Source: a phage | Direction: 5' to 3' (one strand) | DNA: 51,099 nucleotides | Sequence record: NC_129764.1 | Shown here: piece by piece, positions 6,270 to 50,630 of the stretch | Layout: each line of letters opens with the position of its first letter | Numbering within the stretch: the stretch's first letter is position 1 | The notes under the pieces: generated by a model | Seen by the model: only the letters and a program-made list of their open reading frames with translations | Told to the model about the DNA's origin: nothing | The model's database searches: none | Made by a program: the position numbers and the translations under genes

Positions 6270-6288
6270 TAGCACGAATTGCTAAAAC
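6268..6288 (+). promoter_or_regulatory. dyad motif copy AATAGCACGAATTGCTAAAAC
   Basis: Sequence match; hairpin aagggca-tttgttagaa-tgccctt. Confidence 0.65.
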
Positions 6289-6352
6289 TTGCTCAAGGGC
6301 ATTTGTTAGAATGCCCTTCGTTGAGTTAAGCAACCAATCAGAGGAATAAATC

Positions 6353-6886
6353 ATGGATAAAATCACAATTTGGGGCCAGACAATCAACCTGTTTCTCGGC
6401 ACGCGCCGAGTGGCAATCTTTGACTTTGACGGGACACTTAGCGATGGATCTGGTCGACTTCACCTGCTGCCAACAAAGGATTTGCACTTGACTGAAAGCT
6501 GGTCCGAGTTTAACCGCGCGGCAATATTTGACAACCCAATCCAGAGCACGATCGATGTGATGAACTCTATGTTTGCCGCTGGGTATCATGTGATCATTTT
6601 AACCGGGAGAAGTGATGAGGTGCGTTACGCATCTGAGTTATGGCTTAAGCATCACGGCGCTCGATATGATTACTTAGTCATGCGACCGCATACCGACAAC
6701 CGAAAAGACACGGTAATGAAAGAAGAGGCAGTGCGCGCGATCGGCATTGAGAACATTCTGGCGGCATGGGATGACTCACCGCAAATTATTCCATTATTCC
6801 GGTCGCTTGGAATAACCACTTACGCTGTAGTTGACTATGGCGATAAAGTTCACGAACATTTAAAATCTCACGGGGTAGATGAATGA
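6353..6886 (+). CDS. HAD-superfamily phosphatase (177 aa)
   Basis: HAD motif I FDFDGTL, motif II-like ILTGR, C-terminal acidic DD motif. Confidence 0.65.
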   Translation: MDKITIWGQTINLFLGTRRVAIFDFDGTLSDGSGRLHLLPTKDLHLTESWSEFNRAAIFDNPIQSTIDVMNSMFAAGYHVIILTGRSDEVRYASELWLKHHGARYDYLVMRPHTDNRKDTVMKEEAVRAIGIENILAAWDDSPQIIPLFRSLGITTYAVVDYGDKVHEHLKSHGVDE

Positions 6887-6994
6887 ACCTGTACGAATTT
6901 ATTTCAGCACATCCGGTATTAACGGTTATCATCCTGTTAATCATCAATCACACTATCATCAATGTGGCAAAATTATTTTTAGGGAGATGCTAAC

Positions 6995-7567
6995 ATGAAA
7001 ACAGCTATCATTTTAAACGGCGCGCCGGGCGCAGGCAAAGACACTATCGGATGCATCCTGGCCGACACTTACGATCACGTAGCGCTACGCAGCTTCAAGG
7101 CGCCAATGTTTGAGATTGCCCGAGCAATATTGGGTGAGACTAATTTCGAATACTTCATGTTCTTGTATGAGGACCGTCGATATAAAGAAGAGCCAGCATC
7201 AATCCTGAACGGTAAAAGCCCGCGCCAGTTTATGATCTGGATTAGCGAGGAGGTCATCAAGCCGCAGTTCGGAAATCGCTTCTTCGGTATGCGAGCGGAA
7301 AGCAAGGTGAAAGAGTCTCACTCCCTTTCGGTATTTACTGACGGTGGATTCAAAGACGAGATCTTGCAGATGATTGAAGGTGATATCCAGGTAAAGCTAT
7401 GTCGAATCCATCGCAACGGTTGCAACTTTGACAACGACAGCCGCGACTATATCTATCTTGACGATATGATCGGGGTCAACGGTTATCAGGAATGTGACTT
7501 CTTTTCTGTCGAAGGCCATCCAGAAATTACCGCCCAGCACATAGCCGCCACGTTCATCAACAAATAG
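6995..7567 (+). CDS. P-loop kinase (190 aa), possibly polynucleotide or nucleotide kinase
   Basis: Walker A GAPGAGKDT at N-terminus. Confidence 0.6.
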   Translation: MKTAIILNGAPGAGKDTIGCILADTYDHVALRSFKAPMFEIARAILGETNFEYFMFLYEDRRYKEEPASILNGKSPRQFMIWISEEVIKPQFGNRFFGMRAESKVKESHSLSVFTDGGFKDEILQMIEGDIQVKLCRIHRNGCNFDNDSRDYIYLDDMIGVNGYQECDFFSVEGHPEITAQHIAATFINK

Positions 7568-7583
7568 CACGAATTGCTAAAAC
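7563..7583 (+). promoter_or_regulatory. dyad motif copy AATAGCACGAATTGCTAAAAC
   Basis: Sequence match; stop TAG embedded. Confidence 0.65.
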
Positions 7584-29536: not shown

Positions 29537-29558
29537 GGGGCCGAGTGGCCCCTTTTTT
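29537..29558. terminator. bidirectional intrinsic terminator
   Basis: ggggccgagtggcccc stem with T-run on plus and A-run upstream; sits between convergent genes. Confidence 0.7.
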
Positions 29559-30531
29559 AATACATGTTCGGAAGAACTATCAACGGAGATTGAATTGCTA
29601 TGTTCCTGTTAGGCATCACGAATTGCTGTCGAGAGTAGTTACCAACAACCTTGTTTTTAGCGACTCTTATTTTGTTACCTGCCATTCTGATCCCGTTCAT
29701 CCTTACGTGGTTGTATCCCCCATTGCTTTCAATCAAAGCGCCGCAGTATGATAGCTGAATAAGGCTGTTCCCTATATCCTGATCCCCTGTGCCGATATTG
29801 ATTACGCGGTTGTAAACGAATGGCTTATTTACTGTAGAGAAAGTAACCTGACCTTGCTTGTTGGTCATAGTTATACCGTTACCGCCACGCGGTGGAGTGT
29901 TATTGAATATCACCAAATCCATAGTAACAGAAGCCGTAACGTCATCTCTTCCCCCGTATGATGCATTCCTTACCGTGATGTTTGAACCGTCAAATCCAAC
30001 GCTTACATTAGGATCGTTCCATCTAGCGAAAGGAATGCCGCTTACTGGCAATTTCATGTTTCCATTAACAGTTATTCGATTTGAATATTGGCACGTCATT
30101 AATTTTGCCACGTTTGATATAGCGGTGAAGTCAGTCGAGTTTGCAACAAGTAGACCCTCATTTCTTGTGCCGACTGGTAATATCTCCATGACAGTACCAG
30201 CCCACTGAGGTAGCCCGGTATATGCACTCAATGCATCCTCACCTCTAATTATCACTCCGCTATTGCCATTCCTTGATACCGTCGTCGCATAAAACGGATC
30301 TGGTATTACAAGAGTCTGGTCAAATACCTCAATAACATCAACAGGTTTTGTGAAAACAACAACAACCTGAGATCCTGGCGTCAATGGAGTATTAACAGTC
30401 AACGTTTTATTTGATTGCGCCCTCTGATTAAAGTTAGCGCAGAATGACGGTGCGCGAAGCCCTGCCGTTATTTGCATCGCTGGTCGTCCGTCATTGTAGT
30501 TTACATATATCCCCTCACCCATAATTACCAC
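29557..30531 (-). CDS. hypothetical protein (324 aa), co-transcribed with lipoprotein; possible receptor-binding or exclusion accessory
   Basis: Long minus-strand ORF overlapping the lipoprotein gene end; function unassigned. Confidence 0.5.
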   Translation of the reverse strand: MVIMGEGIYVNYNDGRPAMQITAGLRAPSFCANFNQRAQSNKTLTVNTPLTPGSQVVVVFTKPVDVIEVFDQTLVIPDPFYATTVSRNGNSGVIIRGEDALSAYTGLPQWAGTVMEILPVGTRNEGLLVANSTDFTAISNVAKLMTCQYSNRITVNGNMKLPVSGIPFARWNDPNVSVGFDGSNITVRNASYGGRDDVTASVTMDLVIFNNTPPRGGNGITMTNKQGQVTFSTVNKPFVYNRVINIGTGDQDIGNSLIQLSYCGALIESNGGYNHVRMNGIRMAGNKIRVAKNKVVGNYSRQQFVMPNRNIAIQSPLIVLPNMY

Positions 30532-41635: not shown

Positions 41636-42787
41636 ATGTCACAAGCTAAAATCACTACCGAGCAACTTATCGAAGAGCGCATGAGCGGCCTTACACTTCG
41701 CGAGATTGCGGAAAAGTACGGTATGCACATCCGCACTGTTGAAGCTCGTCACGCAAAACTTGCAAAGGAAGGTCACTTCCACGGTAACGAGCATGTTGCT
41801 AAGAACGTACCGGAAGGATTCATGGTAAAAGGCACATCAACGATGATTCGCGGCGATGGGACCGAGGTAGTGCGATGGGTTAAGACCGATCAGGACCGTG
41901 AGAAGATTGCGGCAATGATGGAAGCAGCGCGTATTGCATTCTGTGAAGACTTGCCGCGAGCAAAACCAACTGAGCTACTCACATCGCAAGGGCTTACAAC
42001 CGCTATTGGCAAGCTGGCACTCTACCCGGTGTTCGATCTTCACATTGGCGCGCTTGCTCACAAGCATGAATGCGGAGAGAACTACTCTACAGACGTAGCG
42101 GAAAAAGTGCTGAATGACTTCTTTAACTACGCGATCGATATTGCCCCGAACGCAGAGAAGGCTGTTCTGTTAATCGGCGGCGACTTCCTTCACTCAGACG
42201 GTCTTGATGCTGTTACCCCGGCAAGCGGTCACGTTCTGGATCAGGATTCACGATATGCGAAATTGGTGCATGTGGCTATTCGATCGGTGCGACGAGCTAT
42301 CGACAAAATGCTGACTAAACACAAAGAGGTCGAAGTTCAGGTTATCGAAGGGAACCACGACCAGGCCGGAATGATTTGGCTACGCGCTGCAATGGCTGCA
42401 TACTATGAGGACGAGCCGCGAGTATTCGTTGACGTTAGTCCTATGATTCTGCATAAGACCCGCTGGGGAAATACCTTGTTGGGATACACTCACGGTCACA
42501 CGATGAAAAAGGCAGACACGCGACTTGCAGCGATGGCGGCAGACTTCCGTGCAGACTTCGGTGAAAGCAAATACGTGTATACTCACAGTGGACACTGGCA
42601 CCATCAAACAATCACAGAACACTCGTTAGGTATTGATGAGGTTCACGGGCAGTTAGGCGCGAAAGATGCATACGCCGCGCGAGGCGGGTGGCGCTCATAT
42701 CGCCAGGCGGCGGTAATCGTTTACGATAAACAGTTTGGTGAAATCGGTCGATTCATCTATCGTCCAGAAATGACAGGATCGCACTAA
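41636..42787 (+). CDS. metallophosphoesterase (calcineurin-like) with N-terminal HTH-like segment (383 aa)
   Basis: Motifs GDFLHSDG, GNHD, GH; N-terminal LTLREIAEKYGMHIRTVEA. Confidence 0.55.
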   Translation: MSQAKITTEQLIEERMSGLTLREIAEKYGMHIRTVEARHAKLAKEGHFHGNEHVAKNVPEGFMVKGTSTMIRGDGTEVVRWVKTDQDREKIAAMMEAARIAFCEDLPRAKPTELLTSQGLTTAIGKLALYPVFDLHIGALAHKHECGENYSTDVAEKVLNDFFNYAIDIAPNAEKAVLLIGGDFLHSDGLDAVTPASGHVLDQDSRYAKLVHVAIRSVRRAIDKMLTKHKEVEVQVIEGNHDQAGMIWLRAAMAAYYEDEPRVFVDVSPMILHKTRWGNTLLGYTHGHTMKKADTRLAAMAADFRADFGESKYVYTHSGHWHHQTITEHSLGIDEVHGQLGAKDAYAARGGWRSYRQAAVIVYDKQFGEIGRFIYRPEMTGSH

Positions 42788-49922: not shown

Positions 49923-49943
49923 GTTTTAACAAAAAGTGCTATT
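49923..49943 (-). promoter_or_regulatory. dyad motif copy (minus strand AATAGCACTTTTTGTTAAAAC)
   Basis: Sequence match; downstream hairpin and leader catcgaaacgag. Confidence 0.65.
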
Positions 49944-50630
49944 TGCGATTGCTTTGAAAAATCCACGCGGCGACAGCGATCGTATCAACTTCGTTTTGGC
50001 AGACTTGCCGCCCAGCTTGTTTTGCTGCGCAGAGTACCCGTCAGGCAGGCTTACTGGCTTTCTCTCCGGCATGACAAAATCGTCCGAGGTCCAAAGACAC
50101 GTCTTTTTCGGGTAAGCATCGCGCGGCGCAATATACATCGGGAACCAGGGATGCGCGTCATTCTCAGGAAGATAGCCGCCATACTCCCAGGGATTGAATG
50201 AGTGATCTGGTTTTCTCCAGGCAGATGACAGGACGCTAACCGGATTCTCAATGATGTAAGTCACGCCCAGGGCGTCGCCAATATTCGCAGCAATCCGTGC
50301 GGTGGCAACGGCCTTCTCCTGGAATAACGGATCACGTTCACGCTTGCTGGCAAAGTGGCGAGCACCACTAACAGCCAGGTCAGTACACGGAGGGAAGGCC
50401 ATAATAAAATCCGGCTTGCCATACACGCCAGCGATAGCATCACGCTCAAACGCTGCGTCAATGAAGACGTTCACATACTCAATGTTCGGATGCTCAACCC
50501 TGGCGTTATACTTTGCGTAATCTCCGTGATCGGCTCCGTCAAAGTTGAAGCACATCACCTTATGACCTTGCTTTGCCAGTTCATGACCAGCAAGGCCGGA
50601 ACCGTCGAATAGTGACCAAATTAATTTCAT
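49926..50630 (-). CDS. minimal C5-cytosine methyltransferase-like protein (234 aa)
   Basis: Motif I-like LFDGSG, motif IV PC (FPPCTDLAVSG), motif VI ENV-like (IENPVSVL); no obvious target recognition domain. Confidence 0.6.
   Translation of the reverse strand: MKLIWSLFDGSGLAGHELAKQGHKVMCFNFDGADHGDYAKYNARVEHPNIEYVNVFIDAAFERDAIAGVYGKPDFIMAFPPCTDLAVSGARHFASKRERDPLFQEKAVATARIAANIGDALGVTYIIENPVSVLSSAWRKPDHSFNPWEYGGYLPENDAHPWFPMYIAPRDAYPKKTCLWTSDDFVMPERKPVSLPDGYSAQQNKLGGKSAKTKLIRSLSPRGFFKAIANSTFC

What the first reader, a model, noticed from the sequence alone, without database searches (positions are those of the whole stretch)
6353..7567. Adjacent HAD phosphatase and P-loop kinase genes: possible split polynucleotide kinase-phosphatase
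A HAD-family phosphatase (FDFDGTL, 6353-6886) is followed, with its own dyad-motif cassette, by a P-loop kinase (GAPGAGKDT, 6995-7567). These two activities are combined in phage polynucleotide kinase-phosphatases that heal broken nucleic acid ends, an activity used to counter host anticodon nucleases. Here they are separate genes in the reverse order. They could equally be nucleotide metabolism enzymes.
Basis: inference. Interest (0 to 1): 0.5.

Follow-up and report, generated by a model that had tools for sequence, protein, structure and literature searches.

The report
T1 phage phosphatase plus dNMP kinase operon
These are the already annotated gp64 and gp62 genes of a T1-like coliphage: a stand-alone phosphatase related to the T4 end-healing enzyme, and a deoxynucleotide kinase whose close relative has been characterised biochemically, so the pair is most likely nucleotide salvage and not a split RNA-repair enzyme.

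Summary
Both ORFs are real and at the stated coordinates. The window is a T1-like phage (Tunavirus), and the genes are T1 gp64 (HAD) and gp62 (kinase, 100% identical).

- **HAD.** It is a genuine relative of the T4 Pnkp 3'-phosphatase domain. It passes the Pfam HAD_PNKP threshold, its best fold matches are Pnkp1 and T4 Pnkp, and the Pnkp catalytic residues are conserved.
- **No ligase** was found in the window.
- **One cassette, not two.** The claim that the kinase has "its own dyad cassette" is wrong. The HAD, a 36-aa ORF and the kinase lie in a single cassette bounded by motif copies at 6272 and 7567.

The two genes are nevertheless linked in function:
- The order HAD then kinase holds in 74 of 80 related loci.
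- Rare natural HAD-kinase fusions exist.
- A gp16-like metallophosphoesterase travels with the pair in several phage lineages.

Best reading: a nucleotide-salvage module. This is ordinary and largely already known. The HAD's real substrate remains untested.

The parts
6272..6288 (+). Copy of the repeated dyad motif GCACGAATTGCTAAAAC (core TAGCA-N5-TGCTA from 6270). It marks the upstream boundary of the cassette. A hairpin (6295-6318) that overlaps a TGnTAGAAT-like element follows it.
   Evidence: Exact match (10 copies at up to 3 mismatches, 0.21 expected). The hairpin and the -10-like element are my reading, not tested.
6353..6886 (+). Stand-alone Pnkp-type HAD phosphatase, 177 aa (T1 gp64 orthologue). 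Motifs: I D24-x-D26-G-T28, R35, II T84-G-R86, D119, III K123, IV D140-D141.
   Evidence: Pfam HAD_PNKP 61.7 bits against a 27.6 cut-off, and phrog_415 at 2e-66. hhalign to T4 Pnkp residues 152-298 gives probability 97%. Top Foldseek matches are 4xru (Pnkp1) and 5uj0 (T4 Pnkp phosphatase). 91% identical to T1 gp64.
6883..6993 (+). 36-aa hydrophobic ORF of unknown function, translationally coupled to both neighbours.
   Evidence: The same 36-aa ORF is annotated in phage LeonhardEuler. T1 carries an HNH endonuclease at this position. No family match.
6995..7567 (+). Deoxynucleoside monophosphate kinase (DNK), 190 aa (T1 gp62). It has the P-loop GAPGAGK15D16T, and family-invariant residues include Y58, R77, S84, E85, K89, D116, G118, F119, E122, D148, S149 and R150.
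7567..7583 (+). Next copy of the dyad motif, starting on the last base of the kinase stop codon. It marks the downstream boundary of the cassette.
   Evidence: Exact match.
41636..42787 (+). gp16-like protein with an N-terminal HTH and a calcineurin-type metallophosphoesterase domain (PHROG label 'DNA repair exonuclease'). It is distant from the pair in this genome but a candidate partner, because it abuts the HAD-kinase pair in other lineages.
   Evidence: phrog_704 at 5e-157. Weak Metallophos matches. Motifs DLH, GGDFLH, GNHD, GHTHGH and GHWHH are read. Linkage to the pair is shown.

Best explanation
The region is one early-gene cassette of a T1-like phage. It encodes a Pnkp-type HAD phosphatase, a 36-aa membrane-like peptide and a broad-specificity dNMP kinase.

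**Proposed mechanism.** T1-type phages degrade the host chromosome and rebuild their own DNA from the products, using the host polymerase. The kinase converts 5'-dNMPs to dNDPs, and host NDK then makes dNTPs. This step is shown for the Rao1 homologue and inferred here.

The HAD keeps the full T4 Pnkp phosphatase active site. It most likely removes 3'-phosphates, or possibly 2',3'-cyclic phosphates, from breakdown products. Candidate substrates are 3'-dNMPs, nucleoside 3',5'-bisphosphates and 3'-phosphorylated oligonucleotides. Removing these groups would let the products be degraded further and enter the kinase step. This role is inferred and untested.

In many relatives a gp16-like metallophosphoesterase sits directly beside the pair, and it may supply the nuclease step. 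This is also inferred.

The pair is not a split version of the T4 RNA-repair enzyme.
For: **Identity.** The window is colinear with T1 at about 90% identity.

**Kinase.**
- It matches phrog_139, as T4 gp1 does.
- It has the GKD P-loop seen in T4 gp1.
- A weak HMM alignment to gp1 conserves R68->R61, R132->R77, M135->M80, D175->D116 and E181->E122, mapped on the 1DEK contact list.
- Rao1 gp58 is 43% identical and sits immediately after the HAD gene gp57. Purified, it phosphorylates dAMP, dGMP, dCMP and dTMP, and K15A inactivates it.
- The DNK of the Drexlerviridae phage KarlJaspers, 45% identical, behaves the same way in vivo.

**HAD.**. T4 Pnkp phosphatase is known to act on 3'-dTMP as well as on polynucleotides.

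**Coupling of the two genes.**
- The HAD lies upstream on the same strand in 74 of 80 IMG/VR loci.
- Fusion proteins P0218, P0350 and P0232 occur on several contigs.
- A gp16-like gene abuts the pair in 22 of 80 loci, and also in Era103, Rao1 and the fusion locus L089.

**Nucleotide-metabolism context of T1-type HADs elsewhere.** One sits next to nrdAB in ECD7, and one next to a dNTP pyrophosphohydrolase in a Klebsiella podovirus. The same kinase sits next to an NT5C-type nucleotidase, thymidylate synthase and RNR in an rV5-like phage.

**Literature.** T1 and TLS degrade host DNA and reuse the nucleotides. The KanT1 paper already proposes that the two kinases 'enhance nucleotide supply'.
Against: - No activity of any T1-type HAD has been measured, so its substrate (3'-P versus 5'-P, mono- versus polynucleotide) is open.
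- Deleting dnk in Rao1 lowered dATP only moderately and caused no fitness cost in the laboratory, so salvage through this kinase is not essential.
- Most known DNases give 5'-phosphate products. The source of 3'-phosphorylated deoxynucleotides in a T1 infection is hypothetical.
- The gp1 contact R177 is an invariant glycine (G118) in this family, so the pocket is not identical to that of T4 gp1.
- In this window the gp16-like gene is 34 kb away from the pair.
Confidence: 0.55

Rival explanations
1. DNA-end healing. The HAD removes 3'-phosphates from nicked or broken phage DNA so that host ligase or the phage RecE/Erf recombination system can act. The gp16-like Mre11/SbcD-type enzyme would trim ends. 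The kinase is a separate nucleotide enzyme that is merely co-expressed.
For: - The HAD is closest to true polynucleotide 3'-phosphatases.
- In Era103 the gp16-like, HAD and kinase genes are followed at once by an ATP-dependent DNA ligase.
- PHROG labels gp16 a DNA repair exonuclease.
- Host LigA could seal 3'-OH/5'-P nicks (my own knowledge).
Against: - The ligase in Era103 is a standard SP6-like gene, so its adjacency may be incidental.
- This reading does not explain the tight HAD-kinase coupling or the fusions.
- Stand-alone HADs of this type also sit next to nrdAB and a dNTP pyrophosphohydrolase.
Confidence: 0.2
2. Dmp-like 5'-deoxynucleotidase. The HAD dephosphorylates 5'-dNMPs, opposing the kinase. 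This would balance nucleotide pools or blunt immunity that senses the kinase's products, as T5 Dmp does against the Kongming system.
For: - T5 Dmp falls in the same PHROG (415) as the window HAD, and it shares the segment just after motif I.
- The Kongming paper reports frequent co-occurrence of Dmp and DNK in phage genomes.
- In an rV5-like phage the same kinase is followed by an NT5C-type nucleotidase.
Against: - The T1-type HAD profile scores T4 Pnkp at 40 bits but T5 Dmp at only 9 bits.
- T5 Dmp does not match Pfam HAD_PNKP.
- Rao1 carries a 57%-identical HAD, yet it is sensitive to Kongming and dAMP rises during its infection. T5 Dmp supplied in trans protects it.
Confidence: 0.15
3. One reading: a split polynucleotide kinase-phosphatase that heals broken tRNA or RNA ends and counters anticodon nucleases.
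For: - The HAD is homologous to the T4 Pnkp and Pnkp1 phosphatase domains.
- The two genes are coupled and occasionally fused.
- RefSeq labels the HAD 'polynucleotide kinase'.
Against: - The kinase shares only the P-loop with T4 Pnk. It is a gp1-type dNMP kinase with a biochemically characterised homologue.
- No ligase was found in T1 or in the window-specific ORFs.
- E. coli RtcB joins 3'-P/5'-OH ends directly, so healing without a phage ligase would not help (my own knowledge).
Confidence: 0.05
4. The adjacency has no functional meaning: two unrelated early genes that happen to be neighbours.
For: - The kinase occurs without any HAD within 4 kb in Kuravirus and Maculvirus phages.
- The spacing between the two genes varies from overlap to about 2 kb in relatives.
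Against: - Order and strand are kept in 74 of 80 loci.
- The pair has moved as a unit to a different genome position in many Drexlerviridae.
- It recurs in an Autographiviridae phage.
- It is fused in two divergent lineages.
Confidence: 0.05

Closest known systems
Coliphage T1 gp64 ('polynucleotide kinase') and gp62 (hypothetical protein / 'putative kinase')
   Same: Orthologues: 91% (HAD) and 100% (kinase) identity, in the same early-region position and order.
   Different: T1 has an HNH endonuclease between the two genes. The window has a 36-aa ORF there.
Phage Rao1 gp57/gp58 (R1DNK), the trigger of the Kongming defence system
   Same: The same HAD-then-kinase pair in a T1-like genome. The HAD is 57% identical and the kinase 43% identical. 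R1DNK is a proven dAMP/dGMP/dCMP/dTMP kinase.
   Different: In Rao1 the pair directly follows the gp16-like gene near the lysis module. In the window it lies in the left-end early region, 34 kb from gp16.
T4 polynucleotide kinase-phosphatase (PseT, PDB 1LTQ/5UJ0) and Capnocytophaga Pnkp1 (4XRP/4XRU)
   Same: The HAD shares the fold and the catalytic set with their phosphatase domains: D165/D167/R176/R213/D254/K258/D277/D278 of T4 correspond to D24/D26/R35/R86/D119/K123/D140/D141 here.
   Different: The window protein has no Pnk-type kinase domain, and the neighbouring kinase belongs to another family. There is no partner ligase. The T1-type HAD has a conserved segment about 14 residues longer after motif I.
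T4 gp1 deoxynucleotide kinase (PDB 1DEK; Pfam DNMK) and T5 Dnk
   Same: Same PHROG, best structural match, the GKD P-loop, and several conserved dNMP-contact positions.
   Different: Sequence similarity is too low for Pfam DNMK or for a PDB profile search. The protein is about 50 residues shorter, and gp1 R177 is a glycine here.
T5 Dmp 5'-deoxyribonucleotidase (anti-Kongming factor)
   Same: A HAD phosphatase in the same PHROG (415), encoded by a phage that also has a DNK.
   Different: Only a weak, partial alignment. The T1-type HAD does not protect Rao1 from Kongming, whereas Dmp does.

Membership tests
T4-type bifunctional polynucleotide kinase-phosphatase (Pnkp) | C-terminal DxDxT (HAD) 3'-phosphatase domain with the Pnkp catalytic residues | tested here: met
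   hhalign probability 97% to T4 Pnkp residues 152-298, with all listed residues aligned. Residue roles are taken and my own knowledge of Shuman-lab mutagenesis.
T4-type bifunctional polynucleotide kinase-phosphatase (Pnkp) | Pnk-type P-loop 5'-kinase domain | tested here: not met
T4-type bifunctional polynucleotide kinase-phosphatase (Pnkp) | Kinase and phosphatase in one polypeptide | tested here: not met
   In the window they are two genes separated by a third ORF. Rare relatives are fused, but the fused kinase domain is of the dNMP-kinase type.
T4-type bifunctional polynucleotide kinase-phosphatase (Pnkp) | Partner RNA ligase for sealing healed ends | tested here: not met
   No ligase is annotated in T1. 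There is none among the window-specific ORFs. phmmer with T4 DNA ligase, the Era103 ligase and part of T4 Rnl1 found nothing. Sensitivity is limited.
T4-type bifunctional polynucleotide kinase-phosphatase (Pnkp) | Activity on polynucleotide 5'-OH and 3'-P ends | not testable with these tools
   Requires enzyme assays.
Pfam PF25109 HAD_PNKP | Score above the curated gathering threshold | tested here: met
   61.7 bits against a 27.6 cut-off, E 1e-16, covering profile positions 3-138 of 143.
Phage dNMP kinase (DNK; T4 gp1 / T5 Dnk / R1DNK; phrog_139) | Match to the family profile that contains characterised members | tested here: met
   The window kinase scores 1e-46, T4 gp1 2e-65 and R1DNK 6e-44, all over the same profile region, about positions 82-260.
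Phage dNMP kinase (DNK; T4 gp1 / T5 Dnk / R1DNK; phrog_139) | Pfam DNMK (PF21448) membership | tested here: not met
   No DNMK hit at E <= 1, although T4 gp1 scores 358 bits. The Pfam model is narrow.
Phage dNMP kinase (DNK; T4 gp1 / T5 Dnk / R1DNK; phrog_139) | gp1-like two-domain fold | tested here: met
Phage dNMP kinase (DNK; T4 gp1 / T5 Dnk / R1DNK; phrog_139) | Conserved dNMP-binding residues of 1DEK | tested here: inconclusive
   Weak alignments against the contact list. R68, R132, M135, D175 and E181 are kept. R177 becomes G118, and K37 is shifted. The alignment is too weak to be decisive.
Phage dNMP kinase (DNK; T4 gp1 / T5 Dnk / R1DNK; phrog_139) | dNMP to dNDP activity | not testable with these tools
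   Shown for the 43%-identical, syntenic Rao1 gp58, not for this protein.
T5 Dmp-type 5'-deoxynucleotidase / anti-Kongming factor | Close sequence relationship to T5 Dmp | tested here: inconclusive
   Same PHROG, but hhalign probability is only 29% and the HMM score 9 bits, limited to the motif I region.
T5 Dmp-type 5'-deoxynucleotidase / anti-Kongming factor | Depletes dAMP and protects the phage from Kongming | not testable with these tools
   Indirect evidence against: Rao1 encodes the orthologous HAD yet is sensitive, and it is rescued by T5 Dmp.

The most novel reading that the evidence does not exclude
The T1-type HAD and the DNK form a dedicated two-step enzyme pair, a single bifunctional protein in the natural fusions, and work with the gp16-like metallophosphoesterase. 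The module would convert 3'-phosphorylated host-DNA breakdown products (pdNp or 3'-P oligonucleotides) directly into dNDPs. That would be a phage 'nuclease, 3'-phosphatase, dNMP kinase' salvage module that has not been described as such. A more radical variant is that the gp1-fold kinase also phosphorylates 5'-OH nucleoside 3'-phosphates or short oligonucleotides, which would make the fusion a non-orthologous Pnkp.
Probability: 0.2. Interest if true: 0.5.

Novelty: already known. Interest (0 to 1): 0.2.

Why it matters
Mostly as a correction. The common database label 'polynucleotide kinase' on the T1-type HAD is misleading, because the protein has no kinase domain. The neighbouring 'hypothetical' or 'P-loop NTPase' gene is a dNMP kinase, and its Rao1 and KarlJaspers homologues trigger the Kongming defence system, so this phage may be sensed by Kongming too. 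The conserved coupling of a Pnkp-type phosphatase with a dNMP kinase, which includes natural fusions and a travelling metallophosphoesterase, is a modest new lead on how T1-like phages recycle host DNA. Which genes carry out that recycling is still unknown.

Tried and rejected
- **Sequence searches of the kinase against the PDB.** The single sequence and a 41-sequence profile returned only generic P-loop matches. Fold comparison was needed.
- **Pfam and NCBIfam on the kinase.** Nothing reached threshold.
- **Larger family HMM.** An HMM of about 200 sequences run against T4 gp1 and T4 Pnk gave only weak alignments: 17 bits for gp1 and 11 bits for Pnk. I used these only for tentative residue mapping.
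- **Promoter and terminator scan.** No site on the + strand between the genes, and counts were no higher than in shuffles.
- **Ligase search in the window.** Negative.
- **Pnk-type kinase elsewhere in the window.** None found.
- **T5 Dmp as the closest relative of the HAD.** Rejected on score: 9 bits against 40 bits for T4 Pnkp.
- **gp16-like protein against the PDB by sequence.** No hit.

Full report
**What the window is.** The 1.5 kb around the finding matches 120 phage records at 80-99% identity. All are T1-like siphoviruses (Tunavirus, Drexlerviridae) of Escherichia, Shigella and Klebsiella. The whole window is colinear with phage T1 at about 90% identity. The two genes are T1 gp64 and gp62.

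**The observation.**
- ORF 6353-6886 (177 aa, FDFDGTL) and ORF 6995-7567 (190 aa, GAPGAGKDT) are as described.
- One detail is wrong. The repeated dyad motif GCACGAATTGCTAAAAC has 10 copies at up to 3 mismatches, against 0.21 expected. It lies at 6272 and at 7567, with none between the genes.
- The gap holds a 36-codon hydrophobic ORF. It overlaps the HAD stop and ends one base before the kinase start.
- No promoter-like or terminator-like site separates the genes on the + strand.
- The HAD, the small ORF and the kinase therefore share one cassette.

**The HAD protein.**
- It passes the Pfam gathering threshold for HAD_PNKP (61.7 bits against 27.6) and matches phrog_415.
- By sequence, the best solved relatives are Capnocytophaga Pnkp1 and the T4 Pnkp phosphatase domain.
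- A profile of 33 homologues aligns to T4 Pnkp residues 152-298 with 97% probability.
- An AlphaFold model (pLDDT 83) has 4xru (Pnkp1) and 5uj0 (T4 Pnkp phosphatase) as its top Foldseek matches.
- In that alignment, T4 D165, D167, R176, R213, D254, K258, D277 and D278 correspond to D24, D26, R35, R86, D119, K123, D140 and D141. These positions are invariant or nearly so in the family. The remaining roles rest on my recollection of the mutagenesis literature.
- The protein has no kinase domain, so the RefSeq name 'polynucleotide kinase' is a misnomer.

**The kinase.**
- Pfam and NCBIfam give nothing above threshold.
- PHROGs places it in phrog_139 (E 1e-46). T4 gp1, the classical dNMP kinase, matches the same profile region at 2e-65. 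The T4 Pnk kinase domain does not match it.
- The AlphaFold model is confident (pLDDT 95).
- Against T4 Pnk only the 21-residue P-loop aligns.

**Literature that settles the kinase.** The Kongming paper (bioRxiv 10.1101/2024.12.20.629578) isolated escape mutants of phage Rao1 in gp58, which it named R1DNK.
- The purified protein phosphorylates dAMP, dGMP and dCMP efficiently, and also dTMP. The K15A mutant is inactive.
- Rao1 is a 44-kb T1-like phage. Its gp56, gp57 and gp58 are a gp16-like protein, the HAD and the kinase, in that order.
- The window kinase is 43% identical to R1DNK over 183 residues. It is 45% identical to the DNK of the Drexlerviridae phage KarlJaspers, which also triggers Kongming.
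- The window HAD is 57% identical to Rao1 gp57.
- The kinase is therefore a dNMP kinase by homology and synteny with a characterised enzyme.

**Are the two genes a functional pair? Yes.**
- In 80 related IMG/VR loci the HAD lies upstream on the same strand in 74. Spacing runs from overlap to about 2 kb, the longer gaps leaving room for inserted genes.
- In many Drexlerviridae the pair sits at a different genome position, directly after the gp16-like gene (22 of the 80 loci). This agrees with the KanT1 paper.
- The same trio occurs in Erwinia phage Era103, an Autographiviridae phage.
- A library-wide profile search for the kinase family found 4,374 representatives. Among the top 150 were two fusion proteins with an N-terminal HAD_PNKP domain and a C-terminal kinase of this family.
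- A follow-up search found a third fusion cluster. The fusion P0218 occurs on three contigs. In the 60.8-kb contig that was read, a gp16-like gene follows it directly.
- The kinase also occurs without a HAD, in Kuravirus and Maculvirus phages. In an rV5-like phage it is followed by a different HAD, of the NT5C deoxynucleotidase type, next to thymidylate synthase and RNR.
- Stand-alone T1-type HADs also sit next to nrdAB in a T4-like phage that has its own full PseT, and next to a dNTP pyrophosphohydrolase in a Klebsiella podovirus.
- The recurring context is deoxynucleotide metabolism.

**What the HAD does.** This is the open point. Two characterised relatives point in different directions.
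- T4 Pnkp phosphatase acts on 3'-phosphates, including 3'-dTMP. T5 Dmp acts on 5'-dNMPs and is an anti-Kongming factor.
- T5 Dmp falls in the same PHROG as the window HAD. However, the T1-type profile scores T4 Pnkp at 40 bits and T5 Dmp at 9 bits, and T5 Dmp does not match HAD_PNKP.
- Rao1 carries the orthologous HAD but remains sensitive to Kongming. dAMP rises during its infection, and T5 Dmp supplied in trans rescues it.
- I therefore favour a 3'-phosphatase acting on host-DNA breakdown products. This is inference.

**Why not RNA repair.**
- The kinase is of the wrong family.
- No ligase is annotated in T1, found among the window-specific ORFs, or detected by phmmer with three ligase queries.
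- T1 and TLS are known to degrade host DNA and reuse the nucleotides, and the genes responsible are not identified.

**Verdict.** The 'split Pnkp against anticodon nucleases' reading is not supported for the kinase and lacks a ligase. The genes are already annotated and discussed as PNK plus dNMP kinase in Drexlerviridae, and a homologue of the kinase has been characterised.

Noticed in passing
window 6883-6993 (+): A 36-aa hydrophobic ORF (MNLYEFISAHPVLTVIILLIINHTIINVAKLFLGRC) is wedged between the HAD and the kinase with overlapping or abutting stop and start codons. T1 has an HNH homing endonuclease at this spot. Phage LeonhardEuler annotates the same small ORF. It has no family match.
   Followed up: partly
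window + strand 2088, 3670, 4375, 5752, 6272, 7567, 35719, 40793; - strand 101, 47721: The dyad motif TAGCA-N5-TGCTA followed by AAAC (pattern searched: GCACGAATTGCTAAAAC) recurs 10 times at up to 3 mismatches, against 0.21 expected by chance. It punctuates the early-gene cassettes. At 6272 and 7567 it is followed about 20 nt later by a TGnTA(G/T)A(A/G)T-like element, so it may be an early promoter or operator. Its function was not tested.
   Followed up: partly
window 41636-42787 (+); L085 2327-3454; L089 7340-8500; L090 36693-37826: The gp16-like protein (N-terminal HTH plus a calcineurin-type metallophosphoesterase, labelled 'DNA repair exonuclease') directly abuts the HAD-kinase pair in 22 of 80 related loci, and also in Era103 and Rao1. 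It follows the HAD-kinase fusion in an unrelated 60.8-kb phage contig. In this window it is 34 kb away from the pair.
   Followed up: partly
proteins P0218, P0350, P0232; locus L089 6001-7212: Natural single-chain fusions of a T1-type HAD_PNKP domain and a DNK domain. The 60-110 residue linker carries a conserved AAGxxMxKxGxFxGPELHG segment. They are rare: three clusters.
   Followed up: partly
homologues P0082, P0114, P0132, P0166, P0187 (alignment A2); compare window 6884-6886: Some HAD homologues carry an extra C-terminal tail of about 26-30 residues with two cysteine pairs that resembles a zinc ribbon. The window copy and T1 stop just before it. In phage LeonhardEuler the CDS is 78 nt longer.
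   Followed up: no
L086 4600-5193 (Escherichia phage vB_EcoM_12A_SA_NWU): In this rV5-like phage the same kinase family is followed by an NT5C-type 5'(3')-deoxynucleotidase HAD (phrog_420). The pair lies in a cluster with thymidylate synthase and ribonucleotide reductase. This is a second, independent kinase-plus-HAD pairing.
   Followed up: partly
window 49926-50630 (-) and 29557-30531 (-): Regions of the window that are absent from T1 encode a second DNA methyltransferase-like protein (phrog_757) and a 324-aa membrane protein classed as a moron (phrog_1265).
   Followed up: no
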